Assembly (NCBI GenBank): GCA_043228905.1
Contig: JBHGNT010000001.1
Coordinates: forward strand, 1,364,001-1,428,000
From: Azolla caroliniana
Lineage: Eukaryota > Plantae > Polypodiophyta
Direction of reading: 5' to 3'
Length of the DNA: 64,000 bases
Shown: positions 5,400 through 54,100 of the stretch, piece after piece
Layout of the letters: each line of letters starts with the position of its first letter
Position numbering within the stretch: position 1 is the first letter of the stretch
Made by a program: the position numbers and the translations under genes
Notes under the pieces: model-generated
Told to the model about the DNA's origin: nothing
The model's database searches: none
What the model saw: only the letters and a program-made list of their open reading frames with translations

Positions 5400-5800
5400 C
5401 AAATTTTGCGACCACACACATCACACAAATGGATATAGTTCCGAATCAATTCACCATATCATTATATCGAGATCCAAGAATGATACATGGTGGAGAGTTA
5501 CACTCCATGAATCGAAGAAAAATTGAGTACTACACCCTAAGGCATGACAAATCAAAGGTGTCCACCATCCCCAATATTCACAAACCTAGCCAAAACTGAA
5601 TGGAAGCATTACATACCCATACACATGTAGATCCTATATACACTATAATGTCTCCCCATTTGCAACTAACTCAAGTTCACGTGTCCCATTACTTTGTTCG
5701 GAAAACTTGCCAACATTGTGGAAAGATTCGTGCAATGCCAAAGAAGTCGCCCCACCAGATTCTTGTAACAAATCTGTATGCAAGTTAAAAATGAACCATT
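5400..5800 (-). mobile_element. Possible highly degenerate Ty3/gypsy reverse transcriptase remnant
   Basis: Minus-strand translation near 5520-5570 gives GHL*FVMP*G, resembling the gypsy RT motif GHYEFLVMPFG. It has multiple stops and no intact ORF. Confidence 0.3.
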
Positions 5801-21355: not shown

Positions 21356-21503
21356 AGTCTTACAGATATATACATACATTACATACGTATGTATTGTATT
21401 GTATTGTATGTACATATTTTGAGGCCCACTAAGCAATTGCAGCTGCTGTTTCTTTATTTTTCTTTATTTTTTCTTCTTCTTCTTCTTCTTCTTTTTGTTG
21501 GTC

Positions 21504-25476
<3,973 letters not shown>

Positions 25477-26349: not shown

Positions 26350-27050
26350 TTGAATTTGTTTGTCATGCGAGGATCGATGAATCTAACTTGGCAACCCATT
26401 AATAGCCATAGAGTCAATGCATGGGGACTAATCTTGTTGTAACTTCATCATCATATTTGAATCTTCATTATCTCCATGAATTTGTTTGTCATGCAAGTAA
26501 ATAGGCAACCCATTAAAATGGCGATAGAATCATTCCATTGGGATTGATATAAAATTGTAGAGAAAAATTGATAGATTTTCATTTCTACGTTGATGTATAA
26601 ACATTGTGGAACACATGTCACCAAGGATAATGAATAGTTGCATTTATTTAGTTGTAGGTGAATTTGTTTGTCATACAAGTAAATACATTAAAATAATCAT
26701 ATAATCATTGCATTGGGATTGATATAAAATTGTCGATACAAATTGCTCAACCATAGATTGTCATTTCTACATTGAACAAGAGATTGTATAAACATTACGG
26801 AGCACATGTAATCATGGATAATGAACAGTTGCGTTTATTGTAGTTGGGTTGGTGAATTTGTTTGTCATGCAAGTAAATAGGCAACCTATTAAAATAGTTG
26901 TAGAATCATTCCATTGGGATTGATATAAAATTGTAGAGACAAATTGCTCAACCATAGATTGTCACGTCTATGTTGAACAAGAGGTTGTATAAACATTGTG
27001 GAGTACATGTAAACAAGGATAATGATTAGTTGTGTTTATTGTAGTTGGGA
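26350..27050. repeat. Diverged tandem repeat of about 180-200 bp, about 3.5 copies
   Basis: GAATTTGTTTGTCAT recurs at about 26352, 26478, 26660 and 26854. CATTGGGATTGATATAAAATTGT occurs three times. Confidence 0.85.
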
Positions 27051-27124
27051 GGTGGAAGCTAAGCCTCCCACTAGTGTATACAATAGGGATGTTGAGGTCA
27101 ATATCAAACACAAAGAACTTAGAG

Positions 27125-28103: not shown

Positions 28104-28420
28104 ACAGAATGAAGGAAACACACAATCTCCTGTCTATAGCAAAAGGGTTAAGATTCCAAAATAGAGTATATCACATTTTCTGTGCTGCTTGCCTGCTCCC
28201 TTCTATGCGCACAGAATGAAGAAAACACACAATCTCCTGTCTATAGAAAAAGGGTTAAGATCCCAAAATAGAGTAAATATCACAATTTTCTGTGCTGCTT
28301 ACCTGCTCCCTTCTATGCGCACAGAATGAAGAAAACACACAATCTCCTATCTATAGAAAAAGGGTTAAGATCCCAAAATAGAGTAAATATCACAATTTTC
28401 TGTGCTGCTTGCCTGCTCCC
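28104..28420. repeat. Tandem repeat of about 107-110 bp, 3 near-identical copies, downstream of INTS1
   Basis: ACAGAATGAAG..CACACAATCTCCT starts at 28104, 28211 and 28321. Confidence 0.93.
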
Positions 28421-29137: not shown

Positions 29138-32100
29138 CTATAGAATGTCACCGATTTCCTTCAACAAGTCTTGTAGCTGCTCAGGAGCAAATTGAAACAG
29201 CTCTAGCAGTATCTTCTCTTGTGATTCTGTCATGAACTTTCAAGATATTAATGAACATGCATATAAACCAATATTTTATGGCCATGCATATATGTAAATG
29301 ATTGTTCGCATTATACCAGGGAAAAAAAAGAAAAATCGAGATGCTTGATTGGCGGCTATTTTACTCTGACTAGAATTTCTCGATGTCAGTTGCATCATTA
29401 ACACCTCCATGATTATTCTGCAGTTATCATCACTGCACAATAAGAGAGCAATGAAAGGTGTTGATACATGAGTTCTTAGCAAGATAAAAGAAGAGACTAT
29501 GGTTGAACACTACGCAGTTGAATGCTTAATACCAATGCATATGCATGATACAGGAGTTCTCAGCAGATGAACACTATGCACTTGCAAGTTTTATAACAAT
29601 GCATATCATCCGCATAGACTATGGTTGTGCATTTGGACATTTGGGGCATACCTTGGACACTCATACAATGACCGTTCAAGAAGATTGTAGACAATCTCCA
29701 AGATTTCCCGATCAGTGACCTGTATCAACTCTACGAGCACATCTATTAGAAGTGAAAGAATGGCAGGTAGGCGTGATGAAGCCTGCTCTAGGTCCGCAAG
29801 TGTAGCTAATAACCCTGAGGTAGGTTTATTATTTTCCTGGTAGAAATGAAGAACTCTTTAGACAAAAAACGTCAAATGAACTCTTTTCATAAGGAATTTG
29901 ACATTTTATTACGGGTCTTATACATTTCAGGACATTAAGATTTACCATTTCCAGCAATTCCTGATTCAATCTGCGCTTTTTACACCTTGACATGGCCCAA
30001 CAATTGTCCAGAGGGAGTTTTACCCTTTCCAAATATGAAAACTGCAACAGTTGTTCACGAACTGCCTTGACTTCCTCGAAGGGCATGGTTGGTTGCAATA
30101 ATGTGATTTTTCCTATGCTATTGTTCTTTTCAGAGTTATCTAGAAGTGTTAAGACATATGACAGCTTCTTTATCTTGCTAAACTTCTTGGCAGCTGCCTC
30201 TAGAACATCATCTCGATATTTTTCCACAAAATTGCGCCATTTTCCGCCCGAAATCACACAATGACACAGAAAATCAGCCAGTCTTGCAATAACCTTCCCA
30301 TAATGTGTTATGTCTTTTGTTTCAAGACACTGAAGAAAGTCCATATATACAGGCAAAACTGAATTTGGGTCATCATTCAGTGAAAATAAGTTATTGGCAA
30401 TAGCCCTAGATCGACTCTGAAGTTTCTTGCACCTACGTTTATTGTCACCTCGCAGAAATATATAAGGACGGAGCCCATCAAGAAAGGTGATTCCCGTTTT
30501 CAAACTGCAAGCAACTTTATTCCGCACAGCCACATCTTCCAGTTTAATCATTGGAATAAATTCCTGGCAACAACTTTTGACTGAGAACACTATCACATAC
30601 TCATATAAAAGTTTTTTAGTTTACTGTGAAGCTATAGCACTGACCTTCAATAGCACTCCCAATGATGGCATGATAAATAGGAAGAGTGTTGGATGCTGTT
30701 TTGCAAAAATTCTACAGAATCCTGCACACCAGAGAAATGAGATGTTAAAATAAAATCTTACCATGTGATTGGAGTTGTAAGCAACACTTACTGTATGAAG
30801 TGGCATTCTCTTCAATACTCTCACACAAGGTAGATGTAACCGCATCATGGATAATTACCTTGCATACGTTTGCCTACATTTCAGGTTTCATAGAAAGTTT
30901 ATGAATGGTTACAGAATAGGAAATTTTCATTCTCGCAACAAAATGCCTTACCTGCTTAAACAAGCACTCTGCTAGACATAATTTATCGATATCAAATGAA
31001 ATATCAGCTTCCCGAAAGTCCTTCCTATGGATGGTAGGCAGAGCTGATTCAATTGAGATTGGCCATAGCATGTAAAGAATCAATATAAGGTTTTTTGCTG
31101 ATGTCTTAAGCTCCCCTTCAAGAAGTTTCCCAAACTTTGGTTCACTGAGCAAACCCCAATCTGCTTTTCTGCTTAGCTCCCAACTGCATAATGAATTCGG
31201 ATTGTCTCAGGACTGTTTCATATGTTCAATAGGCACCCAGAGTTCATTCAATTTGGAATTACATCAAGCATCTACCGAGCATCTACTTAAAGAATGAGAA
31301 AATGTTCTGTGTTTGAAAATCCTTAATTAAAGCGAACAGTTAAGTTCTGAGGAAACCATCTGGAGAATTAGGGATAATTATATTGTTTAAGAAGAAAGAA
31401 CAGAAGAACAGAAGAAGAAATAATCGCAGGGGCTACATAGACTTACAGCTTGTTGATAGTAATCCGCAGCATACCATCATTTTGACCTGCCATACAAATA
31501 AGAACCCTTGAAGCCGTTGCCTGATATTTGAGGCAGCATTGACTTATATCTTCTACTCCCAAAAACTTAGAAAGTGAGGTTCTTTGCAGTCCATTAATCA
31601 AACAATGATTGCTGGACAGGAGACTAGAAAGCATTGAGACCACAACAACCAGAACGCAAATATTGTTCACAACAGGAGGAGTGATTACCGATGCTGTGAC
31701 TTTCATGATCACCTCCTGTACACAAAAGCATGACTATGTTATTTGAGAGTTCTTAAAACATATGCAATTATGAATTTGGCAGTTGAAGAGTACATACTTC
31801 TCTAGTAAATATAAGGGAAGCCTTACAAGCAGTTACCTGAGAGTATTCTGATCTATTACATAAAGACTCTAATTGCATATATGGGTGATGTAAGATCATA
31901 TCCACGAAATTGAGTAGGCCACCAAGTGAAAGGAAATGATTTAGTAAATTATCACTTGTGACTGTATGATCCGCATTGATTGCATTTCGAAAAATCTGTA
32001 AGTTGTCTTCTACCATTCCTAGTAGGCAGTGTAGAGTTTTGATTGAAAACTTCCATGAACTTTGATTAAAGACCCACTGGAGTGTTAAAGGAATCAGAGA

Positions 32101-35100
32101 TGATTTTGAATATAATTGTGTCGTAGATGTGTAGGGATCTTCCAAAATCTCAATTAGATGATCATTTAAACTTAATTCAGGATATGAGAACTTCATGAGA
32201 CTAATATACAGGGCATTCATTCCAGCTCTTGCAATATGATCATTCAATCTACTCGTGCTATGTATAAAATTAGATAGCTCAATCTGATTATTGGTTAGAA
32301 CAAACATCTTCTCCATCAACTTCAATATAGTATTACTTTGCACAATATCGTTCTGTTTACCACAGCATCGTCGCTGCATGTGCATCATGACATGAGATTC
32401 AACATTTTCAAAAGTTACATTGTCCCAAGCAAGCACATCAGTTTCACTCAGCATGCCAATTCTGTGGTGCTCAACTTTATGTTGCAATGGATTGCAAAAA
32501 TATTTATCCATTTCTTGAATAAAAAGTAATGTCTGAGTTGCAATATGTGATAAGTTATACTGACAATCAGTATTTTCAGAGCCAAGTATCTCCTTGACCA
32601 ACATCTGTACACTCTCAAAAAATGTATGAAACATTTGCTTGATTGCCAAAACTGAAGCACAATCCACTTTTTTCTGATTGGAACGTATCAAAGCTGCCTT
32701 GCAGCCCCCCAAGCTAACATAAAGTGGAACTTTCAGCCTTAAAGTTAAAGGTTCTACAAAACTCTCCCCATTGTTTTCAATTGGCTTGGTTAAAAAAGTT
32801 TCTGCTTGCGCTAGCCATGTTTCTGGTTCATGACAAAAGTTAAATTCCCTGAGATACTTTCTCGCCTGTAGATAGGAGAAAACAAATTCTATTGGTGCAT
32901 CTAGGGGAATAGACCATTGTATTATATCCTGAATAGATGGATTCCACATTCTTTCCCCAATGCTTGAAGTAATTTCCTCTGTCGCTTTGTCAGGAACACT
33001 TTTCTGATCTTCCGTCTTTCTGTTCGTATTATCCTTCAAAGCATCATGAAACCTAAGCATAGAAAGAAAGATATATGAATGTCTTTAAAGAAGGCAAAAT
33101 GGCATATCAGACAGAATGAGAGATGACATTTTAAAACATTGTCTTGTCCTCAAGAGAAAACAAAATTAATATAACAAAATTAGTGAGAACTGCCTAAGAT
33201 ACTAAAACTTCTGCCTTCGAAAGATTTCCAGATTGGGCCAATCCAAGATGATCTTTTGAGTATAGAAATGTACATCAGTTTGAGGATAACATAGGAAAGT
33301 GTAACAAAATATTGATACAAAAATTATCCCACTCACTTCAAGGCTGTAGGAGCTTTATTTTCAGGAATATTACAAATCAAATTGATCAGCTCCATTTTCT
33401 TCCACCCATTCCTTATCTTCGTGACATAGCAGGGTTCTTTCTGTTCATCTGCAAATCTACAGCAAGATAAATAAAGATAACGTTTATACAAATAGCAAAA
33501 CACACATGATCAATCATATACCTGACATTAAGAGCAGGCTTAAGGTCTTTGATAAACCCTGCTACAGCCATAGAAGATAGGCCCAAACTAGCACAGGTTT
33601 CACTTTTAGCAGTGGTTCCAAGCATTGAAAAACCTATCCAATGTATATCAATTAATCAGAAAGCTGACTCTTATCCTGATTTACAGTTCAATTTTGAAAT
33701 CCTAAATTCTCCAGGTACTATTTTAAATATGCATAGCACTTACCTCTACTAATAAGTACAGAATAATAATAATTACAAAAACAGACACATGAGATGATTA
33801 AATCAGCGCCTGTGAAAGCAAGAAATTAGCATGGATGACAATGACATGATCATCCAGCCAAAGTTGGAGACAGCCGAACCCACACAATAGAGGCACAAGG
33901 TTTAAATTGTTTGTATTTTTTGAGTCATAGGATTGGATCCTTGGTTAATGATCATACTAGCAAGTGGGAGTTTCTCTTAGAATGAGTTTGGTTTCACCCT
34001 TTTTTTTTATATTACGCTGAACGACTAAAGGTTTCATACATGAGCACATGCCACGTGCTTGTTTAATGTGCACATTTGTATGTATGCATGTGTAACTTTG
34101 CATAATTGGATAATTACTTAGTGTTCTTACATGTTTAAATGGATGCATCGACATTCCTACATGCACTTCAAGAAAGAGCTTGAGGCAAACCTGCTTTTAT
34201 CAGCCTTGCATCCCTGCTATGAAGAAATTGACGTGCCTGATTTTCAGACAGTAGTGGCATCTGTTTTCCTGAACTGTCCTCCAACCATGCCATCGATATC
34301 GTGTTCTCTTCTACTTGGGGGCATGTGATACCAGGAAATAATAACTGAAGAAGCATTTCATAATCATCACTTTTGTTATTGTCTGCCATGGAAAGCAATG
34401 CAAGAACTTCTATTGCAGCATCTACGATGCATTTTGGAATTTGCTTCTTTGAAACATCAGAAAATGTGGGTATAACTAGAGTTACACTTGGAAATTTCAC
34501 GCTTTCATCAGAAAGCTGGACTCCAGTCTCCAATGCTTCCTTCAGTGTTTTGACAAACACACCACCTACATCAGTGGACTGGGAGACTTGAAAAAAGGAA
34601 TTTTGATGGTAACTTCTTGACACACATATGCCTTGAGGATTTTGCAAAAGAGATTTAGTTAGCATTCGCCGCTCAATAGCCAAATTTGCCACAGTCACGG
34701 CCAGTGAATAAGGAGATGGAGATGATGGCAAATGTTCTTTCAAAAATAGCAAATATGCAACAACCTGATGAAGCACATCAAATAGACCAATGATAGTTAG
34801 TGAATAAGCATTCATTGATTGCAAACCACAAAATCCTCGACCAAATGGGTCTATATTCCCAAACGTTTTAATGTTCGAATTTCAAACATGCATAGCTATT
34901 CCCTCCATTACTTCAGCAATCCTCTAAAATTTTGAGGTTCAAGATTCAACGAAGTGTACCCATTTCTCCATTACATAAATTTTACTTGCTGAGACTAAAT
35001 GTTTTTGTGCATATAAGAGTAATGATGGGGAATTTTATGTGGGCTATAACTAATTGCGAGGTCCTATATTTCAAAGACATGTCCCTATCCAGTGTGCCAC

Positions 35101-38100
35101 CATAGAAACAAAGATATATGAACATATTTTAAGAGGCCAAAAATGGCCTAAACGACTGAACAAGAGATTACATCTTAAAATATTGTCTGGTCTTTGAGCA
35201 TAACGAACCAAATAAATAGAACAGAATGTTGGGTGCTAAAGATTCTGAACTTAGTAAAACTGAAAAATCTCTGCCTTCAAAAGAAATGGATGAGTTTGCT
35301 TATGATCAGAAAGTTAAGGATTCCATTTGTAGTGTAATCAAGAGCCTCTTATGGAGGACAGACAATAGCATCCCTATCCTACATGTGACCTTAATGATCA
35401 GGAAGACAGGAATTACCATCGTATCGTGATTAAGAGCCTTTCTGAGAGAATAAGATTTAAATATCTTGATCAGATTACCAGAGACCAGTGGACTTATCAA
35501 CAGAACTAGATTCAAGGAGGGCATTTATGAAGAAAGCCAGCAGGTAGATACAGGAAAAACATTTCTCTACAAATGCAACATACTCCTAGGATCATTGCCT
35601 TATGAAGCACCACTATATTTGACTAGAGTTTCTTTAATAAGTTCTATTATTAGAGGTATACATTAAACAATTCATTTCAAAGACAACCTCAGTATGTCTT
35701 GAGGCACATTTTTACGGGGTAGTACTTCCAAACCTCCAGAGGACAGACTTGTCTAAGACCTACCAACAAGGAGTGGAATCTAGAAAGGGCAGGCTCATTG
35801 TTTCCTAAAATCATTCTTACAAGAGATAGAATAGTAACGCTAAGTGAAATGCACAAAGACCATTTCCCAATGAAGAAGCATACTGAACTGGTGCATTAAG
35901 ACGATAGAACTCTCCATTAATCAATAAAAAGATAAAAAAGAAATGAGCCCATCAGGTACAATCAAAGAAGTCATTTAATTAAAGACTGTTACGCAGAAGG
36001 ATGGAAAAAGCAAAGATTAACACGAATCCTTTATAAAACTAAATTGTTTTAGGACATTTCAAGTGGTTAAATTTTCGATTATTATCATAAGGTTTATAAA
36101 CTTACCACATCAACAGAACTTTCCAAAAGAATTGCTTTACAGATGGCAGAGGACAACCTTTCAAGTAAATGATGTTGAACCTGAAGTTTATCAAGCACGT
36201 TTAGCCAGCTAAAATTCTCCCCTAATGAATCTGGTGTAGCAAAAACTGACGGATTCAATATGCCAGCAAAGCATCGCCTTGCTCTAGCACGAAGATACGA
36301 TTCCACTGAAACAAGTCTATGCAAAAGAAAATCGTATATAGCTTCTATGTCAGCAGATTTATCTGCAAAACCTTCAGTGACAGCCATGTGTAAGTTTCTG
36401 TAAAGATGTGTTAAGTCCATGGTATGCATGCCTTTCCCTGGATAAAATCCTTCATATACATACAGAAGCTCTATCTGCAAGCACATAAACTACTCTCAAT
36501 AATCAAGTTTCCACAATGCTTACATGACCATTTAAATAGTACAAAAATTCACCTGCCATGGTAATGGTAACCGTTTCGCCAATGCTGGATCCTTCACTAA
36601 GACCCTCCGCAGCCACGGCCAAGCGCAGGGAAGTGTCTGGGAAATAACAAACACAAGGACAAGGAGCAAATGAAATTTTATTCTCTGGCATTCATATCAT
36701 CAAAATTTATAAAAGCAGGGCATATTTGTTTCTCTAACATTCACCCTGCCACAAGTTCTAAAAGCAGGGCATATTAATGAAAAAACTTTATATGATCCTA
36801 ACAGAAATAAATGCAGTGATCAGTGCTCCCTGTAAAACCTATGAACTTCTGGAAAAAGAGTTACCCATGAAAGATACTTCCTTATAAGTGCATATCTGCG
36901 CATACAACGAATTTAGAGACAAAATCCTCCTGTGCGACAAATCATGTTTATGTCTGTATGCTACCAGAAATTGTACCAAAAAAAGTGCAAGATTGACTGC
37001 CCGTAACCTATCCCTGATCATGTGCTGAATGAGGACAAGGGGAAACAAATTGCAAATCATATCGACTTGGGGTAATTTCTACAGAGAAGCCTTCACAAGA
37101 TCAGAAGGTTGAAACTTCAATCATCAGGTACATTAAAGTTATAAATCCCTTGGATGATATTTAGTCTCATGAGTCATACCCTTGCCGTGTAGGGTGGTGT
37201 ACGTAATCTACTAAATAAAGTTTTGGAGACATGAAATCATATTCATACCTGCGATGTTGTGATTTCAACAAAAAAGTCAGGGTCTGTACACTTCCGAAGC
37301 AACTGACTAAGCTGGTACAGTTTCTCCATTTTATCTATTTCATTAAGAACAAAGGGAGGTGCCCTTCTTAAGGTACTGAAATGGTCTATAGGCATCAAGC
37401 TCTCTCTCCATCCCATCTTGTTTGCAAAAGACCCAGAGTTATTTACATCTGGGTTTTCTTGCATGAATGTCGTAACAAAATCCTCCATTTCTGTTTCATT
37501 GTCAAACATCTTCAACTCCGGAACCTCCCCTTTATTTTTACAGTCCTCCTTCAAACTGCAATGAGAAACAAACCAAAATAATAATAAGAAACCATAGAAA
37601 GTGCCAACAATCAGAAGACTGGATGTAAATATATGCATCTGTACAATGTGGAATTTAGACCGTACCTAATCAAAGCAGCTGTACGGAATAATCATTTTTC
37701 TTCTTTAGGAAATAAGTCAGTTTGATGATATTAGAATTTTTTGTTGTACAATGTTATTATTTGTGATTCCAAGCATGATGCATCCTTTAAATAGTTCTAT
37801 TAGAGCTCAGGCTTACACATAAATCTGAGCCTCTAGGAAATTTTATTACTGTTATCCATGGCATTATAAGACATCATTTTAAAGCTTTTAGTTACCTTTC
37901 TAGGTTAAAATCTCCTTCACGTGTCAATAAAAGCTCCATTAAATGCCTTACAGTTGAGATGTTCTCCCAAACATGGTGCCCTATTCTCTTGACATTGTTA
38001 ACAGCAATCATCAAAACAACAATGCAAGATCTCCAATAAAGTTCCTTATACTGCAACATAAACAGATGAAAGACAAATGTTTAGACTGTCAAGCATCATT

Positions 38101-41100
38101 GTTGTATCATAATATAATATTAAGGAAGTATCTTTCATGGGTAACCATAATATAATACAAATGATCAAGGATCATTTTCAATTAATCTTTGATATCATCG
38201 AAGTAATATTATATCACCATTATCTGAAATAAATTCATCATCTGTATCTTTGATTGCATCCTTGTAAATTGAATTTAGCATATTGATCTCACTAATCTCT
38301 ATTCAAATGATTAATCATTAGAGGCCCGTAGCATAACAATCTTGACCCATCCTCATTGTATTACAATATCATATCCTATCTATCTTTATCACTAGCAAAA
38401 ACCTATTCCAGGATATTTCTGAGAGATGCATCTAGGCACTGAGACAAAGAGGAAGATTGAAAATTTAAGAGCATCAGTGTGTTTATCTTCAGTTTCCACA
38501 GAGAACCACCATACTGAATTGTTTTCATATGTCAAGCCCATCTCCCACCATCGCAGAAGCTTCCCTCACTTCGGAGACCCTCCATTCTGGATTGGCCAGA
38601 GATCTTTCGAAGACAAAAATTAAAATATATCTGACTTGAGAATCTTGCATGTACTGATAACACAATTCTGTAGTTTCTACTTAGTACCATTTATTTATTT
38701 CAATTTGTTCTCAAAGATGAGACAACATTTAAGATGTAATCTCTTGTTTGGTCTTATAGGCCATTATGGCCTCTTAAAAGAAGTTAAAATTTCTTTCTTT
38801 TTCTTTCTCTTGCTATTAAAGTTACAGATCATCTTCAGTTAATTAAGTGAATAAGTTGATTAAGAATGACTGATGGCCACATGCAAAAGACGGTATTATT
38901 GAGAAAGAGATAGTATACCACAAGCTGAATGGAAGGTCGTGACATTGCACCAGGAACATCAAAAGAGGCCAACTTAAAAATTGCCATTGGGAGCTGGAAA
39001 AGTAATGATAGTCAGAAACTATGCTGCAACAATATTATATATTCAAATTCAAATTTTCAGACCTGAGTGCTATCAGTTTTAAGACTACAAGTCAAGTATC
39101 TAGCTGATGCTGTTGCCCTCCACACTAATCTCTCAACAATCTGAAGTGCTTCTGCTTGTATTAAGGGAAAATCTTTCTGATAGATCAAATATAGGAACAT
39201 TATTTGTTGTTCCATTCATTAGGAAATCTGAAACACAAAATTTCAATACTTACAGAAATACCCATATAAATAAGTCGGGCAAGAATATCCTCCGATGCTT
39301 GGGTAGAAGCACAGAGAATTTGATAGGAATTGAGTTCAACATCGCCACATTTTTCACCAATGGGAAAATATGCCTGCAAATTGCCAACCTCTTAACATAA
39401 AGCTACTTCCAGATTGACAAGTTAGACAAATCCACTTGGTAGTACAAGCCCCAAGAAAAAAATATTACAAATATCCATCAACATCAAAATTTAATCCAAA
39501 ATACATAGCACCCCTTAAAATAGCATTAAAACAAAATTTGCACCAAGGCATTCCTCCTGTTTGGCTGCTCTGGACAGGTCTGATACATCTCTAAAGAACA
39601 TCAAGCCATAGAATATGTGTTGATAATGATTTCAATGAAAGAATCTTAATTTATAGAAGTGCTTTAAACCCTATTAAAATCTCTCCACTGTTTATTTGTA
39701 TGATAACTTGTAGTGTAATCATCTTGCACAATCACACAATGTATAATGCAGCCACTATTATTTGTTAGAAAAATTATGTAATAGGAGCTTTCTAAAGATC
39801 ATTGAAATTTTTAACAAAATAAAATATAATGAAAAACATACTGGGATAAAACAAGAATGGGAAAACAGGAACCTCGAGATTCTCTAAGAAAAGAAATTTC
39901 TGTATAATATTTGCAAAATGCACACTAGTTATTCCTGGCAAGATTGTTGGTAGAACATTTGTACACCATTCCAGAGCTTCAACCTGTATAAGAAGCATAA
40001 TGGTATAACTCGTTACTAATAAAATTTGGAATAAGTTTCCTTTGCTTCAATTATTACCAACCTGAAAAGCCATTACATCACAACTGATCTTCTCAAGCAT
40101 TGACAAAGTCTCCTTCGGATGAGAGAATGGTGCAAAAGCATCCCATCCTTTGGTTCTGCGTCTCTCCAATTCTTTGATCAATTGAACAAAAGAATCGTCA
40201 GAAGTAAGCTGGGATACTCCATACAACAGGAACTGACATGCCAGATCGATTATCTAGAGAAAACAAAGTCAGTTCCATGACCGAATTAGTATTATGAAGA
40301 ATTTTATTTAAAGATTCATATCAATATTCGACAATTCTTGTTCTTCCATTTACAAGACCTATGAGAAGATTATGTTTCCACAACATAATTTCCATGTATG
40401 CCTTTCTTAGGAAATTATGTTTCCATAGACATGAAGGGTCAAATGCCAATGAAATGCCAGCCTTGCAGATGTTCGAAAATGTTGGCAAGGAGTGCCATTT
40501 CTCGTTAAAGATCATTCATGTAGCTTATTTTAGCAAATAATAAGTTTCTGTGTATTCACTGATTATAATAATATCCTGTTTCAATCTCTGCAAAAAGCGG
40601 CTTTGAAGCACGAGCACCTGTTCTCCCTCTTTTAGTAAAGCATGTATATCTTCTTACATTCTCATCCCAATGTAAGTGAGAAAACACTACTGAGATCCTA
40701 CCTTCAATTAATTCCTACCACCAAGTAACTTCCACATGCATACTTGGAGAAATTAGCATCCAATGAGATGAGTTTAATATCAAATAAGGTGAAGTTTACA
40801 CCAATTTTTTACGGACCTGCATAAGCCAGCTTTCTCTCAATGCTTCTGTATGGTTGATTATAGGTCTCCATGGTTGCAAAAGCCCAAGGCATAACGCATA
40901 TAAATTTAGATCTTGACCCATGTATTTGAGCAATCTGTTTGGTTAAAGTAGATTGTTTATTTTTACAGTTGAACCTGAGTTAAATTAGAACCTGAGTTAA
41001 ATTAGAAGGTACTGAAGTGCAGAAGGTCACCTGCGTCCAAGTTCTCGCAGCTGGGATCGTGTATCAATATTCAATGCATGCTCCTGTGTATAAAATATAT

Positions 41101-44100
41101 AGGCATGGTTAACAATCAGTGGTAAAAACACATGACCTTTAGGCACATAAGTATGTGTCATTTGAAAAAAGAAAGCACAAATGTGGTGAAAACAAGAACC
41201 TGCAATCTCATAAATACCTGTAAAACTGTTGCAAGTTCATGTTCCGGTGCTGATGAGACTGGCATAGCTTTCATAACAATTGAAATGCACCTCATATTAA
41301 ATAAACTCTTCGCAGTTATTTCTGCTAGGACAAATGTCTGCAATGCAATGAATTAACTTAATCATTCCGTCCACATTAATGGAGTAATAATCTTAAACCA
41401 AAATGTTCATACCCTCAAAGCAAGGCTTCCATATTCAAGTCTTCGAGACACTAGACGCGTGATCATTTCGGTGTATATGTTGCCATGTAAAGCTTTCATC
41501 TAAATTATTTCAACTGCTTCACCTTAGAACACAATTTCACCCAGTAGCAAGCTATACACCCGTAATATATTTATAATCATTTAAGGGCCCATACAAACAA
41601 ATGAACATTTTGACAAACCTGGCTAGCTGATTGTGATGATTGCACTCGAAGGGCTAGCAAATTCTGCAAAGTTACAATATCATTTTCGGTGACACCATGA
41701 AGATTATCTAGGATTTCATCCAGCAAAGTTTTGGCCGCACGTAGGTGAATTGGACTATTTAGCCAGCTTTCTAGCATACTCGAACCTAACACTCTCACTT
41801 CTTCATATCCTACTCCCTGGATGAGTAATCTGTGACAAGTAGCAGGTTGCTTAAGAGAGCCAAATTATTAGAATTTTGCATACAAATCATTTTGTCATAC
41901 AATACATCCAGACCAATCATTGTCACATATCCAAATAAATCCTGACTAAAAAACGGAATTATAACCAAAAGCGTGATTAAGACACTTCCAAATTACATTT
42001 TAGATATGTCGAGCTACTACAATCACAAGGCATCTTGTTTACCCAGTTGCAACAATAGTTTTTCACTTGGCTGCCTTGTTCTTCGAAATTTCCAAGTAAA
42101 CAGAAACTAATCTTGAACTGAGAATACTACTGTTCCACGAAGAACAATGTGGCTATGGAGAGCTAGTAACAAGAGTTGTAGTCGATGGAAGAACATAGTA
42201 TCATTTCTCATTTCCAAAATAAAGATATTCTCAAGCAAGAAACCCACGAATCCAGTTGGCATTATACCAAAGTACTCTAAACCATTTTTCAATATTTGAA
42301 GAATGATCCCCCTTCTATACTTTTACATACTCCATAGCTGAGACACAATCTCACAAGATTCAGTTTCTACTTACTTGAGTAATTGCCTTAAATTTTCCTT
42401 AGTTGTTGAAGATCCAAGGAGAAACTGTACTGCTTTCAGAAATTCTTCTCGTGCGATTCTCCTGGTTTCAATACCTTGGTACCTGTTCTTCACTGTGCCC
42501 TGCAACTTTTTTTATTAACTCCCATGTTAGATCTATGCAAGAACTTGCAAATGTTTAGTTATTTCTATTCAATTAGTATGTCATAAAGGAGGCAACAGAA
42601 TGAAAAAGGTTTATGGACAACAAGCTAAAGTTCATGATTTTTTAACCTCATCAATAGGTTCAAATTTTCATAAAAAAACAATGCATACGGAGTGAACATA
42701 GCAGATCTACTTTTCATTATCAGAAACCTGGACTTTTGCACGTAAATTGTTCGTATCCCTTAATGTCCACAAATGAAGAGATAAACCAAAGTACAAGACA
42801 GTTGTTAGAATTTTGAGAATAATAAGAGACAAACAACACTTCGCGCACATATGCCAACACAAGATATTTAACACGTATTTTTCCAGCAATTCATAGATAT
42901 AGCAATATTACTAGTTTTAGAGATTATATTTCCGTTTGGTGATATAACAAATAATCTCATTCTCTTCTGAGCAAAATCCGTATAATGGTGGAACAGAAGC
43001 AATTATACTGGAATTTGCCTCTCAAATATCTTTTTCATATTAAGATGCTTTGGAGTTCCCATTTTACTTGCAAAGCACTACTTCTCTAATGATAAATGAT
43101 ACAGATGGGATCAACCCCTACTCACCTATAGTCATATAGCCTCCACATCAAGAAGCTTGGAATCACAAATGAAGTCCTATGGCATGATGCGCAAAAAAAG
43201 AATGCATGCCATAGACAATTTCTTATTTGAGGATATTTATACTAGCAAGAATAGGAATTGTTACTACCCAAGTTCCTCTATTGTCATGGTGCACATACTT
43301 CCTGTTGAGTCATCTTAAGATTCTTGAGTGGGTTCAACAATGAAGTGAAAAGACTACCTATAAACTTCCATAAACGTGAAATAAGCATGACATAGAAATG
43401 AGCAGTAAATGAACCTAACAAAGACTGTATTCCATAGATATTCTCTTATTTGAGAAAAAATAAACTAGCAAGAAGAGGCATTGTCAGTACCCAAGTTCTT
43501 CTATGATCATGGTGCGCGACACTTCCTATTGTGTTAGCTTACAGTCCTTCAGTGGGTCCAACTCCCATGTTGAAGAACCACATATAAAAAAAATCTCCTA
43601 ACAAATTGAAATACGCATGCCAAAAAAAAGCAAGTAAACATTGATATAAAAGGAAAATTGGATTGATATAATGTAGAGACTGATTGAATGAATGTTTTCA
43701 AACCAGGAAAGCATAATTACTCAACAAATAGATACAGCCTAATCCTTAAAAACAACAAGCTGGCAATGTAAACCATAATTGCACTGTGCTGACATAGTTT
43801 GACAGAATGCAATTTGCCTTCCATTTGGAACAATTTCTAATCACGCATACCACCAATGGTTGAAAAACAATATAACCCAAAAAGTCACTAGTTGAAATAC
43901 ATCCATATTCCAAACAGGCCAAAAGATTGAACTTAGCCCAGAAGTCTAGTGAATAATTAGTTACCATGGGCGTGTTATGATCAGAAAAAGCTGTAACTAC
44001 ATTCACGACAAATTCCTTGCAACCATCGTGTTCAATCCATGCTCGAGGACCAACAGCATCATCCAGATAGACCTACATGGATATATCTAGCACATAAATC

Positions 44101-45649
44101 CTGATAGTTTCATTATTTATAAAAGTTATGTGTCCATGTTTTTTTAATTGTACAGAATAATGGCATACCCTAATGAATTCCATAGGCCAATGTAATATTG
44201 ACTCGAAAGCCCTTGATAACAACTTGGAGGCAAGTGAAGGCAATAGTAAATGTTTTTTCGTAGCTGCATGGAAATCACTAGAGCTGAAAAAACTTAGTAT
44301 AACCTGCATGAAACTGTTCCACTAATCAGAAGACAGACAAAAATACAGCAAACTATTACCACATTCTGTAAGCGTAGCAGTAGCATTCAACATTAACAAA
44401 CCATGAGACTATACTTCGAATTAATAATTCCATATAATCATAAGATATATGTTGTCACCTTGCAAGTCTTTCGTAGCGCGAATAGCTCTGGAAACTTCTT
44501 GGAAACATATATACAAGCTAGATAATGGTATCTGTTGCAATTAAAGGGACTTCTAGCAAGATCTTCACAAACTCCAGATAGGATATCATCAATCATTTTC
44601 AAGTCTCGATGTTCATATGCATTCCAAACAGCACAAAGAATATCTAGATCCGCTATAAACAGCATATCAAGCATATGAGAAAAATAAGTTAATCGACAGT
44701 GAAACCAAGAGACAGAAATAAACCACTATTCATCACCATGATCACAAACAGAAATATGCATTGAGACCGAGCATAATGCTATTATCGAGACAGTAAGCAA
44801 TTGGAAATGACATAGTATAACATGAGAAAATAAGAGTTGGTCATCCTCAAAATATCTCACCTTCTTTAAATCCAAGTTCCTCTGCCTGATTTGCTACTTG
44901 TTAAGGAAAGAAATTTGCAAAGATAAAGAAAATATTATCTGAAAAGAAGCACTAAATGAAGCATTCTTGTGGAATTGCATGTTAGATACGCATGCCAGGA
45001 AGAAGGAAAAACATGCATCTTGCTTTCGTCCAAAAAACAATTTGCAGGAAAAGAAAACATGGATTTTTAAGAGGTGAAAAATAAAATCGACGAAATAAAA
45101 CTAGCCTTTTTTATGGAAAAACAAAAGCAATATCACAAAATAAAGAAGGCAAACAGAAATTAACGAAAGAAAATGAGAATTTTGAGAGATGAAAACGAGA
45201 ATTACACAAAATAAAGAAGCCAAACTGCATTCTATGAAGAAAAACAACCATCTTGTTTGATGGGAACCCGTGGCTCACAATTTTTATAAAGGATGGGAAA
45301 AAAATCAATTTTGTGTATGATATGAAGTGGAGAAAATGAATAAGAACGGTGAGGATACAGATTCCACCTTCCTGAAGGAGAATGATAAAGAAGCACCAAA
45401 CTGATGATGATGATCTTTTCCGTTAATATTATCAGTATATTGACTCGTCCCTTGATTTCTTATATACATTTCTGTATCATCTTCTTCTATTTCTTCTTTT
45501 GCCTCTTTCTTCTCTTCTTCTTCTTTTTCGGTCTCTTCCTCTGATTCTGCCTCTGCTTCGACTTCTTCATCGGCCATGGGAGCATCGTTCAAATCGAAAC
45601 CTTTCTTAGGCGCCATGTTCAAATCTAAATTCTCTGCAGAAGAAGACAT
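29138..45649 (-). CDS. INTS1: Integrator complex subunit 1 homolog (about 30 exons)
   Basis: Spliced peptides parallel metazoan INTS1 along its length: WPMEFIR|VYLDDAVGPRAWIEHDGCKEFVVNVVTAF (cf. WPEIFVKVYIEDSLGERIWVD...FVDNIQTAF); GYEEVRVLGSSMLESWLNSP (cf. GYKEVRLLAVQKLEMWLQNP); EDILARLIYMGIS|KDFPL (cf. EDTLMRILVIGLSRELP); LYWRSCIVVLMIAVNN (cf. LYWKAWPLLLVVAAFNP); LSQLLRKCTDPDFF; and C-terminal LADLEQASSRLPAIL. First ATG at 45649, TAG at 29140-29138. Large internal exons at about 33055-31835 and 30590-29946. Confidence 0.88.
43208..43640. repeat. Diverged tandem duplication of about 225 bp in an INTS1 intron
   Basis: TCTTATTTGAG..ACTAGCAAGAA..TACCCAAGTTC..TCATGGTGC..ACTTCCT occurs at about 43220 and 43443. 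Confidence 0.8.
44886..45358 (-). other. U12-type (minor spliceosome) GT-AG intron 1 of INTS1
   Basis: The 5' end reads GTATCCTC. The branch site TTCCTTAAC (44908-44900) lies 14 nt before the CAG. Splicing keeps frame through the 25-nt exon 44885-44861 into the exon starting at 44652. Confidence 0.8.
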
Positions 45650-46029
45650 GCTCGTATATCCTCTCCTTCTATCACTCACTCTCTCTGTCTCCCTCTCTCT
45701 CTGTGTTTATGTGAAGTGCCTGCCTACCCCTAAGTATTATCTATTTCCCCAAATGCCCCTCTCTACTGCACAACTTTTCAAGCGAAGGGAATATGATGAA
45801 ATTTCAATTAAAATAATGATTGTTTGTCTTTGATAAGGTTTAGCTGTATCGGAAGCGAAGGTTTGAATCTCCAATTTATGGTATAAGCATTGGATCTTAT
45901 TGAATGTGTATGATACATCCACGATGAACCCTTGTAAACACTATTGAAAGATCAATAAACACGTATTTGGATGGTTTATCATTTGTACTTTATTCTGACT
46001 GTATTTATGGCAACATGTGAATTGCATGC

Positions 46030-48090: not shown

Positions 48091-48142
48091 GGCTTGTGCT
48101 GGTAATGACCAGGCTGCATGAAGAAGAGACCGAGGCAAGGGC

Positions 48143-51100
48143 ATGTCTATGGATCTGTGCTGGGACAGGGGTACTGAAGTTAATACAATAAAACAGAAGC
48201 AGAAAAAGGAGCAGAAGCAGGAACAAGAAGAAGAAGCGAAACAACAAGAAAAGGAAACAGAAGAAGAGGAGGAAGAAGTACTAGAGGTTAATCTGAAGGA
48301 AGAGATAGAACCCGAAGGTGAAGGTTGGGAGAGCAACTCAAGTGAAGATACATCAGTGGGAGAATATGAAGGAGGAGGAGGTGGAGGTGAAGGAGGAGAT
48401 ATGATGATGATGATGAACATGCCGACGGAACGCGCTGATGTGGATAACATCGACGACGATGATGAACTGGCACTGGAATTCCCACTGGAGGATCTCACGG
48501 TGCTCTTAGAAGGTCTCAACAAGTGGCCATGGACTGTATACCCTATCCACCTTACCAACTGTCTCTCCTCTGCTGCCAAGCTTGCCAGTGTAAACATGGA
48601 AGATGCCAGCTCGGACACTTCTCGGCGCTTGCAAAGCTTATATAGGGAGGCAGTGCCTAGTGCGTTTGAGAAATGTCTCGACGATAAGGCTATATGGAAG
48701 TGGAATGACGAGATTCACAACAATATCTTTGATGCCCTTTGTCGACTTGTCGACTTGGTAGTGGCCAAATTGCCTCATCTCCTACAGGATGACGAGGGTT
48801 GCTTGGGTTTGGCAATGGAGGATATGCTTCCCTTGCTTAGATCTCTTGCCTTAGGGCTGGATAAGCAGAGTCAGTATCATTTGAAGCACAAGGACCAATC
48901 CCGCTCTTCTTTAGGTAACTCACTTTCTTCTTCATCGGGTTCGGCTTTAGGACTTGGGTCACCTAAGTTTGCTAGGCCTCTGGTCTCTCCCAAAAGCGGA
49001 GAAGAGGGCTCGTATTCATGGGTTTCCTATTTGCTCAACTACTTTGGAAAGACTGGTTATGGGAATGGCTATCAGCAGCTATTAAGGGTCCTTTCCACAC
49101 CTCAAAAGCTTGTCCCGGCTGTACTTGAGGCATTGCTTCTCATTGTATCAAAAGCAGCAGAGTTTCTCACCGATGATGTGGCAGAAGCATTCATTGATCC
49201 TGGTAATAGGGTCCTTAAGTACGTCGCCCATAAGCTAGAATCGGATGTAGATGCTTTGAGTGACAAAACTAGGGATGGATCCTTTGCTGCACTTTCATCC
49301 ATTCTCAAACATCTCCAGGTTATCATTGCAAGGAGCACTTCGTTGGAAAGAGCTGAGAATGTAGTGAGTGTTGTGCAAAGGGTGTTGGTTGAAAGAATGC
49401 TTAGTTTCCATTCATTTAACAAGCAACTCAGCGCGGTACGGGAGATCAATAAGCTTCTAGAGAATGCACGATTGGTTTCTTCAAGGTAGATGCACTTCTT
49501 CCTTTTTTAACCCTTGAATTTGCAAAATAAAAGTTTCTAGAGTTATTGGGTTATTTTGATTGTTGCTTTTAGCTAGGAATGGGACCATATGTTTCAATGG
49601 GTTGTTGGTTTATTCTTATTGATGCTCTTAAGCTATTTTGTTGTATAAAACAGTGACGATCCTGATGCCTTGTGCACAACAATCCAGTGGCTGGAGAGAA
49701 TGGACATATTACGTAAGGTTGTTCGCTCTCATCTACACCATAAACAGTATGTTGATCAGGCAATTATCTGTCCCTTCTTCTATCACTTCCAGAAGCATAT
49801 TTGAAATCTCCCCTCTATATACTTGCAGAACTAATTAAGCCTAAATGGGCTGCAGGTTGAGAAAATCATGAAGTTCCTTCTTCAGGAGAAGCGGCTTTCT
49901 GAGGAGCATTTGGATGCAATATGGGCAGCTATAGAGAAGCCTGATCAGTTTGAAACGGTAGAAAAGCTATACATTGAAATAATGTATAAGGAAAAGGATT
50001 ATAAGCTAACTGTAATCGCCTCTTGATTATTATGCCAGGTGAAAGCCAACATTTTTGACCTTATTGCAGATTTGGCTTGGTCTTTCTCTCCTGAACAGCT
50101 AGACAGTTTGTTTGGTCGATTTGAACGAAGCCAGGTATTATGTGTTTCTGTATTCTCTTTGGTCTTTTGGCTCATCGGCATCGCCCACAAATATTTTTCC
50201 TTTTTCCTTTGATAGGGTCACTCTCCATCTGATACTGTCAAAATTTTGGCCTTGGTGAAAAAACTCGCACGAAGTGATAACAAGGGAGTCATGGCTTCAA
50301 GGTTACATAGTTTTTTCTGAGATTTTTATTTCACTTGGGTTGATAGGATGTATCGAACTTTCTCATTTGAGCCATATGTATAGCATGTGTGACATGAAAT
50401 TGTAAACCAGAAAGAAAGGTTTGGAATGCACAATGTTAATGCAGATGAGTTGTGGATGGCGGATGGTAGATATTTACTAGATGCAGAAGTTGAGCCAGTT
50501 GAATTCATTCTTTAAAATGATATTCAATATTCAGTAGAAACTGTTCTACTTTTTATCAATTAAAAGTGTTGTGGATAGATGGCCTATTCTCTTGCAACAT
50601 TAGAATCTTCTTGGAATAGATGCAAAACTGTAATGAAGAAAACAATCCTGTCAATGCTATTTTTGGCATTCACAAACTGTCTACTTTTCCAAGACGCTTT
50701 GATGCTAAAAATGCCAAGCCATGTTTGTTTGTATGTATGTTTTGTTGATATTTTCTGACCTGTTTCAAATCGAATAGCATAATTTTTACTGATTAACTAG
50801 AAGGTTTCCTGTGCAGGTTACTGGAGCTTTTATGGAAGTTGATGCTAGCTGATGATGCGCCTGGAGAGATCATGGAGTCTGGAGCATTTACAGAGATTCT
50901 CAGTCATTATGATTCCATAAATTGTGCAAGCAAAGATGTGGGTCAGAGAAGCTTTTACAATAGCTGTAAGATGTTTTATGTGCTAGATTGGTGCCTGTTT
51001 GCCGAAACCTGATGCCTGTGGCGTATTCTGCCATTGGACGTTTACTTGCGATTCTCTATTCTTCTTGATTTGACAAAGAGTGCCTAGTATCCATCAGATG

Positions 51101-54100
51101 GACAACCTGTTTTGCGATGCTTATAAAAGGAAGTTAGAGCAGTGTATGAATCTTTGTAGGGGTTTCTCATTGACCCATAAAATTAGCAATAACCTATACT
51201 GGGTTCTGGTTTCATCCAGCCATACTTGCTTATGAAAAGCTGAGGAATGCAAGGTAAGAAGAATTAAGGTGATACATCTCCCCATGAATTGGGAGCACAG
51301 AAATCTGATGCACAGGCATAAAGCAATGAAGTTAACAAAACTGCTGTTGCACTTTTTCTGGCAGTGAAGTGATAAATCCCTTTAGTTTGAGCATATGTGT
51401 CTTGTAGACTGAATGCAAGCTGGAAGGATACCGAACGTCCAAGATTTCTATTCTTGATAACCATTATGATCATTAAGGTCATTGGACCATAATTGCAGGA
51501 AACAAAGTAAAGGGAGCAGAACTGCTCCCTAAAGCCTAAAATGCCGTTTTTCTGAATTTGGTTTCATTGTGCTCTCCGGGTTTAGTGTTTGAAGGCGTTT
51601 TTGATGGTTTTGTGGTCTCTATCTAGTATGGACTTTCTCCCATAACTGCCATTCCACACAGCCCATGTTCCTTAACCCATCACATGCTCATCATATCTAT
51701 CGTACCTTGAAGATAGACAATTACTTAATATGCTTTATATATGTGTATCTCAGGAAACTGATGGATTTGTATTTTTATACAAATACATGAACAAATAATT
51801 TAAATATTCCCCACAGTATCCTAATTTTGATGATGTGAAAACCAGTTCAATTATTTCCCATCATACCCCGCATGTTAAACAGAGTCCTTCAGCTGTCAGT
51901 TCATGCCTGTGATTCGGATCAGTTTTTAAATTCGGGGAACATTCCCCAGATTTAAGGTCTTTGTAAGCAATATAGCTGTTGCATTTTCCTGGTGGTCTGG
52001 TTCACTAGGCCCGAGCGATGTCTTACATCGATGACTGCATAATGTTTCCATCTCTTGAGGAAACCTATATGAGCTTGTAAGCATGTATATATACCAATTT
52101 CCTATCTATCAAAGCAAAGGTCATTTGCCAATCAATGATAATCTTTAGTACACAAGTAAAGAGCGTGAAAACACAGTTTCATTAGCATTATTGGCGGGGA
52201 ATGTTGTTCCGAGCTCCTTGTTAAGCCTTCAGCTGTTCACTTGCGTATGGAATGCATGCCATTTGACCTCAGCCAAGATATGTGACCTTACATAATAGTC
52301 ATTCTGATTCTAGGAACATCCAATTGGTTTTACTGTCCAGAGATTTCCAGATCTTTGGTTCCCAAGGTTGTGTACCTTTGATAAAAATGATAATATGGTG
52401 CGTGCACAACTTTTATAAATGAAGATCTGTTTAGTGAATTGATATCAGGGTCTGCTGAAAATACTACTATCAGTGATAAGAGATGGACAAAATACAATCC
52501 AGTCTTGGTGCAGGAATGCTTTTACAATCTTGGCATAGGAGGTGATTGTGAGAGAACAAACCTCTCCAAATCAAATACAGTTATCAGTTGAATTAGGGCT
52601 CTTTGATTCTCTATTTATTCATAATATTTCTTGTTCCCTATTACCTTAATTATATCTCCCTATGGCTTATATATAAGATGTGGTAGTTCTCAACATCGCT
52701 GTGATTTCAGAGATTGCAGTACATTCAGAGCAGTTACTTCCCCATTGTGCAGGCGTGCATGTAAGCTAAGATGTCATCATGTGTGCATGTACAATCATGC
52801 ATCATGAAACTGATTAATAGATGGAGACAATCTTGCTTGCCCTGGGGTCATGTGTCGTCTTATACGTAGTAACTTTCAAGGCCTCAGGGGATTGTCAAAG
52901 ACCCCTGTTATCCAGTTGATGAAGGGATACTGTGGGAGATGATAACTTTTCTTGTATGGCTTGTTAATTGTTGATTGAGGGCCTTATCCCTGGGATGCCC
53001 TTGGTGACAATGTTCGCTTGCACCACTGTTTTAAATGCAGCTAATCATAACTTTTCAATTGCAAGGTTGCATATATGCCAATTTTTTATAGAGTATAGCA
53101 CATGCTTCTCTCTATGCCTGCTGGATCAAGAGAAGATCATTTACCTGATAAGCGGCCAAAAGAAGTAAGAAAAAGAAGTAAATATGATAAAAAAGACAAA
53201 AGAATCTTGTTATTGGGACATGAGATTCTCAAGTCAGATATATTATCATTTTTTTTTCGAAAGATCTCTAGCATAGGTTGTTCCAGAATGGAAAGGTCTC
53301 CGAAGCGAGGGAACCACCTGTGAAGGCGGGAGATAATGGCCTTTATTTGTCGATGACGAGGGTGGTGAGGTAGCGGTTCATGAGGACAAGACAGTTCCAT
53401 CCACATAGTCAGAGGGGAGTATCATTCGAGCTTTTGCAAAGCCTTGAGCCATTCCCATGCATGTGGAATGTGTGCCGCTTGACCCTACATAACAGTTATT
53501 CTCGTTCTAGGAATGTGGGAGTGTTTTTATAGGCGTGCATGTGAGGTAATTATAAGAGAACAAGCCAGCATTCTTATTCTCATTCGACGAATATGGGAAT
53601 GTTTTCATATGTTTGCATGTGAAATGACACAAGAGAAGAACACTCTCTGTAAATCATAGTTTCAAATGAATTAGGGCTCTGCAACATTCTATAGATTCAT
53701 GATATTGGAATTGTCAATCAAGAAGATTTCTTGATACATATTAACTTAATCATAGTAGTACTAATATTGATGCAATATTTGTTTTGTGCCACTCAAAACC
53801 GTTCCAGTCTACTTTCTTCCACTATGCCATATCTCGTGGAACTCCTTTGTGACTATTTTTATTGCCATTGCCAATGTAGTGTAACCTTTGATAGGCATAG
53901 AGGTTAACTTTTGTGAGGTGAAAATATCCCTGTATGGATTGATTTTTGATCCCCAACGGGGTCTGATGAATATGCTGATATAAACCTTCCTTGAAAATGT
54001 AAGTGGAATAATGTAATAATATTCAATGCTTGTATATTGTAAATTTTTATGTTATATATTTCTTTCTTGGACAAACTTAATTTTTATTTCTAGGAGTTGT

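What the first reader, a model, noticed from the sequence alone, without database searches (positions are those of the whole stretch)
45578..45628. Two tandem DLNxxP (EAR-type) repressor motifs at the N-terminus of a plant INTS1
Seen: the protein begins MSSSAEN-LDLNMAP-KKG-FDLNDAP, followed by a long acidic tract. Established: (L/F)DLNxxP is the EAR motif that plant repressors use to recruit TOPLESS/TPR corepressors, and INTS1 is the scaffold of Integrator, which attenuates paused Pol II in animals. Inference: two exact copies in a disordered tail are unlikely by chance and suggest an undescribed link between Integrator and TOPLESS-mediated repression in this lineage.
Basis: partly seen in the sequence, partly recalled or inferred. 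Interest (0 to 1): 0.8.

Follow-up and report, generated by a model that had tools for sequence, protein, structure and literature searches.

The report
Plant Integrator scaffold carries TOPLESS motifs
A spliced gene for the Integrator scaffold INTS1, likely from a fern, begins with two copies of the short motif that plant repressors use to grip the TOPLESS corepressor, kept in close relatives, which would link plant gene repression to early transcription termination if the untested binding is real.

Summary
Observation confirmed. The minus strand encodes LDLNMAP (aa 8-14, 45628-45608) and FDLNDAP (aa 18-24, 45598-45578) after ATG 45649, then an acidic tract. They open a 31-exon, 2191-aa reading frame with three INTS1 Pfam domains in human order. 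Transcript contigs of three runs join exon 1 to exon 2. In close relatives (about 5-10% apart) the eight core D-L-N-P codons show 4 silent and 0 replacement changes (P 0.001-0.006 if neutral), so codons 1-24 are likely translated and constrained, though not significantly more than the rest of exon 1 (P 0.12-0.24). Corrections: the two copies likely stem from one 30-nt duplication (19 of 30 identical), so they are not independent chance events; and published DLNxxP motifs bind TOPLESS's second WD40 domain, not LisH-CTLH. No distant plant INTS1 N-terminus could be retrieved, and TOPLESS binding was not modelled or tested. Best reading (0.4): the tail docks Integrator on TOPLESS at repressed promoters. 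I found no paper linking the two in my searches.

The parts
29138..45649 (-). INTS1-like gene, 31 coding exons, 2191 aa model
   Evidence: Hand-built model, GT-AG introns, no internal stop. 16 of 30 introns match RNA joints shown; I used the joints while building the model.
45359..45649 (-). Coding exon 1 (aa 1-97), low-confidence, likely disordered tail
   Evidence: RNA-defined donor at 45359; single-sequence AlphaFold2 pTM 0.24, no helix or strand in aa 1-36
45647..45649 (-). Start codon M1 (A at -3)
   Evidence: Covered by transcript contigs up to 45663 in X1, X3, X5; codons 1-24 show 4 silent, 0 replacement changes against L001
45608..45628 (-). EAR-type motif 1, LDLNMAP (aa 8-14); F at position 8 in organism D
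45578..45598 (-). EAR-type motif 2, FDLNDAP (aa 18-24)
45575..45634 (-). Two 30-nt units (codons 6-15 and 16-25), likely an old tandem duplication
   Evidence: 19 of 30 bases identical; D, L, N codons identical; the 4 codons outside L/F-D-L-N-A-P all changed residue
45470..45577 (-). Acidic tract, aa 25-60
   Evidence: 22 of 36 D/E; tolerates in-frame indels in relatives
44861..44885 (-). Exon 2 (25 nt)
   Evidence: Joint to exon 1 in X1, X4, X5
43965..44072 (-). Exon 4, matches human INTS1 229-261
   Evidence: phmmer against PDB, 7cun_A, E 6e-4
41619..41829 (-). Exon 6, INTS1 RPB2-binding domain
   Evidence: PF12432 E 2.5e-4; human INTS1 354-414, E 6.3e-4
34191..34764 (-). Exon 21, INTS1 INTS2-binding domain
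   Evidence: PF22929 E 3.6e-6, 26.9 bits against cut-off 27.2
29652..29836 (-). Exon 29, INTS1 R4 domain
   Evidence: PF22928 E 1.7e-5

Best explanation
This spliced plant INTS1 gene starts with two DLNxxP motifs in a flexible tail, and these likely dock on the second WD40 domain of the TOPLESS corepressor, which would hold Integrator near RNA polymerase II at repressed promoters so that leaky transcripts are likely cut short. Shown: the gene, the splicing of exon 1, the motifs and their constraint in close relatives. From the literature: DLNxxP binds TPL WD40-2; LxLxL repressors bind the N-terminal domain; TPL contacts SPT4/SPT5; animal Integrator acts on Pol II-DSIF-NELF and is recruited gene-specifically by short motifs of transcription factors. 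Inferred: DNA-bound repressors hold the TPL tetramer by its N-terminal domain, the WD40-2 site takes the INTS1 tail, the duplicated motif raises avidity or local concentration, and the acidic tract is a spacer. Untested: binding, nuclear co-location, and whether this plant has the rest of Integrator.
For: INTS1 identity. Exon 1 spliced in frame. Core codons 4 silent, 0 replacement, P 0.0014-0.0064 under neutrality; the one replacement inside a motif is L8F, which keeps the L/F-DLN form. Codons 1-24 differ at 4 of 72 bases, all silent, against 21 of 150 just upstream. After the duplication the L/F-D-L-N-A-P positions were kept while the other 4 codons all changed residue. DLNxxP is needed for TPL recruitment in Arabidopsis, and moss has EAR-binding TPLs (PMC3443911, part 1 of 2). 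WD40-2 binding: PMC8126959. TPL-SPT4/5/6: PMC11627113 abstract and PMC12706133 passages. Avidity of multiple motifs, shown for LxLxL: PMC4646777. Motif-based recruitment of animal Integrator: bioRxiv 2024.01.24.576984 abstract.
Against: Constraint on the core is not significantly above the rest of exon 1 (Fisher P 0.24 against L001 alone, 0.12 with RNA rows), and it rests on 4 changes. All relatives seen are about 95% identical, so depth of conservation is unknown. Characterised DLNxxP motifs lie mostly at C-termini (PMC9956375). DLNxxP ERFs also bind SAP18 and SIN3 (PMC6283911). In the TPL priming model little RNA is made, which would leave Integrator little to cut. TPL partners are mostly transcription factors. 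One DLNxxP arises in 2.4% of shuffles of this protein, and a duplication gives the second.
Confidence: 0.4

Rival explanations
1. The motifs are real repression motifs but are read by another partner (SAP18/SIN3-HDA19), or they bring TPL/HDAC to Integrator's own sites such as snRNA gene ends instead of bringing Integrator to repressed promoters.
For: DLNxxP-type ERF3/4/7 bind SAP18 or SIN3 and recruit HDA19 (PMC6283911 passages). The known plant Integrator-like DSP complex acts on snRNA. The selection data fit this equally well.
Against: No call separates this from the best explanation. DLNxxP is directly shown to be needed for TPL binding.
Confidence: 0.2
2. The tail is constrained for an Integrator-internal reason, for example binding an INTS12-like subunit, and only resembles EAR motifs.
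For: In animals INTS12 binds the flexible N terminus of INTS1 (PMC11062913 passage). All of exon 1 is under purifying selection (omega 0.15-0.26 for aa 25-97).
Against: The residues kept between the two duplicated units are those of the consensus. Whether this plant has INTS12 was not tested.
Confidence: 0.2
3. A lineage-restricted, nearly neutral feature: one chance DLNxxP, doubled by a 30-nt duplication in a low-complexity tail.
For: Units 19 of 30 identical; a single motif in 480 of 20000 shuffles; a chance DLNxxP lies antisense at about 61121. No distant homologue was seen with or without the motif.
Against: 4 silent, 0 replacement changes in the core and 0 replacements in aa 1-24 against L001 (P 0.002-0.005); in-frame indels occur only downstream of the motifs.
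Confidence: 0.2

Closest known systems
Human INTS1 (PDB 7CUN chain A; Integrator-PP2A structures, PMC11062913)
   Same: Length (2191 against 2190 aa); RPB2-binding, INTS2-binding and R4 Pfam domains in the same order; direct matches at human 229-261 and 354-414; a flexible N-terminal tail (human model starts at residue 143).
   Different: Much of the middle shows no single-exon match. The plant tail holds two DLNxxP motifs and an acidic tract. I did not compare the human tail sequence.
DLNxxP-type EAR repressors (class II ERFs, C2H2 zinc fingers, wheat Q) and the fungal mimic Jsi1
   Same: Exact consensus with L/F before D; motif 1 resembles the DLNLAP-type variants listed in PMC9956375; two motifs per protein are known (24 of 119 characterised repressors; 14 of 266 rice proteins).
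   Different: The carrier is a general Pol II termination scaffold, not a DNA-binding factor or small adaptor; the motifs are N-terminal and only 10 residues apart.
Arabidopsis DSP1-4/CPSF73-I snRNA 3' processing complex
   Same: Plant Integrator-related machinery.
   Different: Described as a smaller Integrator with INTS7, 3, 4, 9 and an INTS11-like nuclease, with no INTS1 named (PMC10533338 passage). A conifer gene is called INTS1 in PMC13339982 and has no Arabidopsis annotation in its supplementary table.
Transcription-factor hubs on INTS13/14, and the INTS12-NELF tether (bioRxiv 2024.01.24.576984; 2026.06.30.735463)
   Same: Short-motif contacts that place Integrator at chosen promoters or on paused Pol II.
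   Different: Here the motif would sit on Integrator itself and be read by a corepressor; the polarity is reversed and the partner is plant-specific.

Membership tests
INTS1 (Integrator subunit 1) | INTS1-specific domains (RP2B-bd, INTS2-bd, R4) in order | tested here: met
   PF12432 E 2.5e-4, PF22929 E 3.6e-6, PF22928 E 1.7e-5 on single exons, each just under Pfam's whole-protein cut-off; 3 INTS1 hits among the 23 INTS1-gene stretches scanned
INTS1 (Integrator subunit 1) | Best match in solved structures is human INTS1 | tested here: met
   2 of 7 gene stretches searched hit 7cun_A first; 5 gave no INTS1 hit
INTS1 (Integrator subunit 1) | Full-length (about 2200 aa), intact, spliced | tested here: met
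   2191 aa, no internal stop; 16 of 30 introns seen in shown RNA joints
INTS1 (Integrator subunit 1) | Assembles with INTS2/5/6/7/8 and Pol II | not testable with these tools
   No genome is held for this window; no biochemistry
EAR motif, DLNxxP type | Consensus DLNx(x)P | tested here: met
   Two exact copies; consensus from PMC9956375
EAR motif, DLNxxP type | Accessible, unstructured context | tested here: met
   No secondary structure in aa 1-36, pLDDT 53-60 per block (single-sequence model, weak evidence)
EAR motif, DLNxxP type | Selectively conserved against its flanks in orthologues | tested here: inconclusive
   Purifying selection shown against neutrality but not against the rest of exon 1; close relatives only
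EAR motif, DLNxxP type | Binds TPL/TPR or SAP18 in a DLN-dependent way | not testable with these tools
EAR motif, DLNxxP type | Confers repression when tethered to DNA | not testable with these tools
   Needs a reporter assay

The most novel reading that the evidence does not exclude
Seed-free plants keep an INTS1-scaffolded Integrator that is wired directly to TOPLESS. Any TPL-bound promoter could then call in the nuclease/phosphatase complex that aborts early Pol II, a corepressor-triggered premature termination route that plays the part that NELF and transcription-factor hubs play in animals, and that Arabidopsis lacks along with INTS1.
Probability: 0.3. Interest if true: 0.8.

Novelty: new variant of a known kind. 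Interest (0 to 1): 0.52.

Why it matters
How TOPLESS represses is still described as unclear (PMC11627113 abstract), and plant Integrator is known only as a reduced snRNA-processing complex in Arabidopsis. A TPL-binding tail on a full INTS1 would give a direct, mutable link between the main plant corepressor and promoter-proximal termination, testable with a 30-residue peptide. Even without the link, a full-length spliced INTS1 in a likely fern suggests that Arabidopsis is a poor model for plant Integrator.

Tried and rejected
Distant homologues: exon 23 against longer proteins gave 0 of 2426 candidates (its length range ended at 2025 aa, below full-length INTS1); exon 21 gave 0 of 2138 (range ended at 2000 aa). 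phmmer of exon 23 over the representatives gave 3 hits: two orthologue fragments (88%, 56%) without N-termini and one repetitive protein, rejected. Exon 1 gave 2 of 43 candidates, both about 95% identical. Metagenome scan: 1 locus of 153 stretches. Prokaryote genome scan: 0 of 601. The Atlas gave no result. No run is on record as RNA ('no RNA holder listed'); I treat X1, X3, X4, X5 as RNA because they show spliced joints. X4 (organism B) does not cover the motifs. My first exon-1 donor (45368) was rejected for the RNA-supported 45359; a phase-1 donor near 45395 broke the frame as I set it. Exon 1 as a high-copy or transposon-derived piece: only 1-2 contigs per run cover the motifs at 80% likeness, so no support, but no genome was available to test it. 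Rfam: 0 hits. Earlier scan notes: nothing on this gene; one search returned 8 unrelated notes. A precedent I recall, the Arabidopsis BAH/TFIIS-N protein SUO with several L/FDLN motifs, could not be checked and is not used. No TPL complex was predicted.

Full report
OBSERVATION. The minus strand from ATG 45649 reads MSSSAENLDLNMAPKKGFDLNDAPMADEEVEAE. LDLNMAP lies at 45628-45608 (aa 8-14) and FDLNDAP at 45598-45578 (aa 18-24). Residues 25-60 are 22 of 36 acidic. A single-sequence AlphaFold2 model of exon 1 has pTM 0.24 and no helix or strand in aa 1-36, which fits a flexible tail but is weak evidence.

THE GENE. I built by hand a 31-exon model from 45649 to 29138 with GT-AG introns: 2191 aa and no internal stop. 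The 15 joints shown (75 more rows were not shown) all fall on model introns, 13 exactly and 2 with a few variant letters between; I used them while building, so this is not an independent test. One search lists the intron-1 joint 44884/45358 (cut +1) in 3 of 4 runs (X1, X4, X5) and moved my donor from 45368 to 45359. Its short side is 24 letters, below the tool's 31-letter rule, because exon 2 is 25 nt and exon 3 lay outside the laid stretch. In X1, record 1 (45358-45583, 0 differences, 126 further letters) and record 7 (45554-45663, 0 differences) overlap and chain the motifs to the joint. The runs are only guessed to be RNA; the spliced joints argue that they are. Single exons hit three INTS1 Pfam families in human order, each just below the whole-protein cut-off, and exons 4 and 6 hit human INTS1 first in the PDB; five other stretches did not. 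Exons 1-2 sit where human INTS1 has its unresolved N terminus (model from residue 143; PMC11062913 passages). The lineage is not shown by my calls: 'likely fern' comes from unchecked earlier notes on this genome.

IS IT MORE THAN CHANCE? In 20000 shuffles of the model protein, 480 held one or more DLNxxP and 4 held two or more. But codons 6-15 and 16-25 are 19 of 30 bases identical, with identical D, L and N codons, so the pair likely comes from one tandem duplication and the shuffle test overstates its rarity. What counts is what was kept: L/F-D-L-N-A-P match between the units while the other 4 codons all changed residue. This comparison is partly circular, because the match drew attention to it.

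SELECTION. Against L001 (introns 6-10% different), codons 1-24 differ at 4 of 72 bases, all silent and all in core D, L or P codons, while the 150 bases upstream differ at 21. Under neutrality P is 0.0014-0.0064 for the 8 core codons. Adding the RNA rows (40 of 48 rows shown) gives one more silent change, K15N in the spacer, and L8F in organism D, which keeps the L/F-DLN form. P0004 and P0005 keep both motifs; P0005 appears to be the L001 gene, so it is not independent. This argues that codons 1-24 are translated, so M25 is not the only start. Against my reading: aa 25-97 are also constrained (omega 0.15-0.26), the core is not significantly more so (Fisher P 0.12-0.24), the counts are small, and all relatives are about 95% identical. 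Every attempt to reach distant plant INTS1 N-termini failed; two of these searches had length limits below full-length INTS1.

MECHANISM. DLNxxP is one of the repression domains needed to recruit TPL/TPR, and moss TPLs bind EAR-like motifs (PMC3443911, part 1 of 2). DLNxxP proteins bind the C-terminal half of TPL; for Jsi1 and ZmERF4 the second WD40 domain is required, whereas LxLxL binds the N-terminal part (PMC8126959 passages). TPL needs SPT4/5/6 and contacts SPT4 (PMC11627113 abstract; PMC12706133 passages). Animal Integrator acts on Pol II-DSIF-NELF (start of abstract of PMC11062913) and is recruited by transcription factors through hubs on INTS13/14 (bioRxiv 2024.01.24.576984 abstract). 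NELF is not found in Arabidopsis but is in a green alga (PMC4940160 passages); its state in this plant is unknown. My inference is that repressors hold the TPL tetramer by its N-terminal domain, WD40-2 takes the INTS1 tail, and Integrator is thus placed beside early Pol II-SPT4/5 at repressed promoters. Multiple motifs can raise avidity over 200-fold for LxLxL on a tetramer (PMC4646777 passages); whether motifs 10 residues apart can reach two sites is unknown. Confidence 0.4. Rivals: another reader such as SAP18, or the reverse direction of recruitment (0.2); an Integrator-internal role, since INTS12 binds this tail in animals (0.2); a near-neutral duplicate (0.2).

NOVELTY. Arabidopsis is described as having a smaller Integrator without INTS1 named (PMC10533338 and PMC6670113 passages). 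A conifer INTS1 is mentioned in passing in PMC13339982 (passages); its supplementary row has no Arabidopsis annotation (3 supplementary files were not searchable). Searches (listings, with passages read for the papers cited here) showed no paper linking Integrator or INTS1 to TOPLESS or EAR motifs; the library lacks most subscription journals, and I ran no search with INTS1 and TOPLESS as the only terms. PMC6479872, PMC9956375 and PMC6283911 (passages) show that two-motif proteins and non-DNA-binding carriers are known. bioRxiv 2026.06.30.735463 was seen as two passages and the start of its abstract.

VERDICT. A real, spliced, constrained feature on a real INTS1; a new variant of known parts; the link to TOPLESS is plausible, cheap to test and unproven. 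Interest 0.52.

Noticed in passing
window 45614-45616 and 45575-45577 (-): In-frame Met codons at aa 12 (A at -3, G at +4; inside motif 1) and aa 25 (right after motif 2). Leaky scanning could make INTS1 forms with two, one or no motifs.
   Followed up: partly
window 45653-45655 (-); L001 / P0005: The relative has an extra in-frame ATG two codons upstream where this window has ACG.
   Followed up: partly
window 48122-64000 (+): USP9X/USP24/USP34-type deubiquitinase gene, head to head with INTS1 about 2.5 kb away; best PDB hit USP9X, E 3.8e-38. It also has an acidic N-terminal tail.
   Followed up: partly
window about 61121 (-): A third six-frame DLNxxP, antisense to the deubiquitinase gene; 0.7 are expected by chance in the window.
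   Followed up: yes
window exon 10, 40817-40934 (-): A third DLN (DLNLY, no proline) inside the structured part of INTS1; probably not a motif.
   Followed up: no
window about 5600-16000 (-): Apparent multi-exon gene with charged, coiled-coil-like exons and ECTFRP-type words; no convincing Pfam hit for the stretches scanned.
   Followed up: partly
window 22736-23026 (+) and 21429-21698 (-): Exon-like ORFs of further genes between long (AC)n and (TACA)n microsatellites; 22736-23026 has no Pfam hit.
   Followed up: no
window about 38540-38820 and 35100-35200: Short high-copy element in INTS1 introns (summed depth 3431 in X2 against about 3-6 nearby), possibly a MITE.
   Followed up: no
window 28104-28420 and 26594-27054: Tandem repeats of 110 bp x 2.9 and 201 bp x 2.4 downstream of the INTS1 stop codon.
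   Followed up: no
window 31837-33052 (-): The 405-aa exon 23 has no Pfam hit and only two database relatives (88%, 56%), so the middle of plant INTS1 is fast-evolving or poorly sampled.
   Followed up: partly
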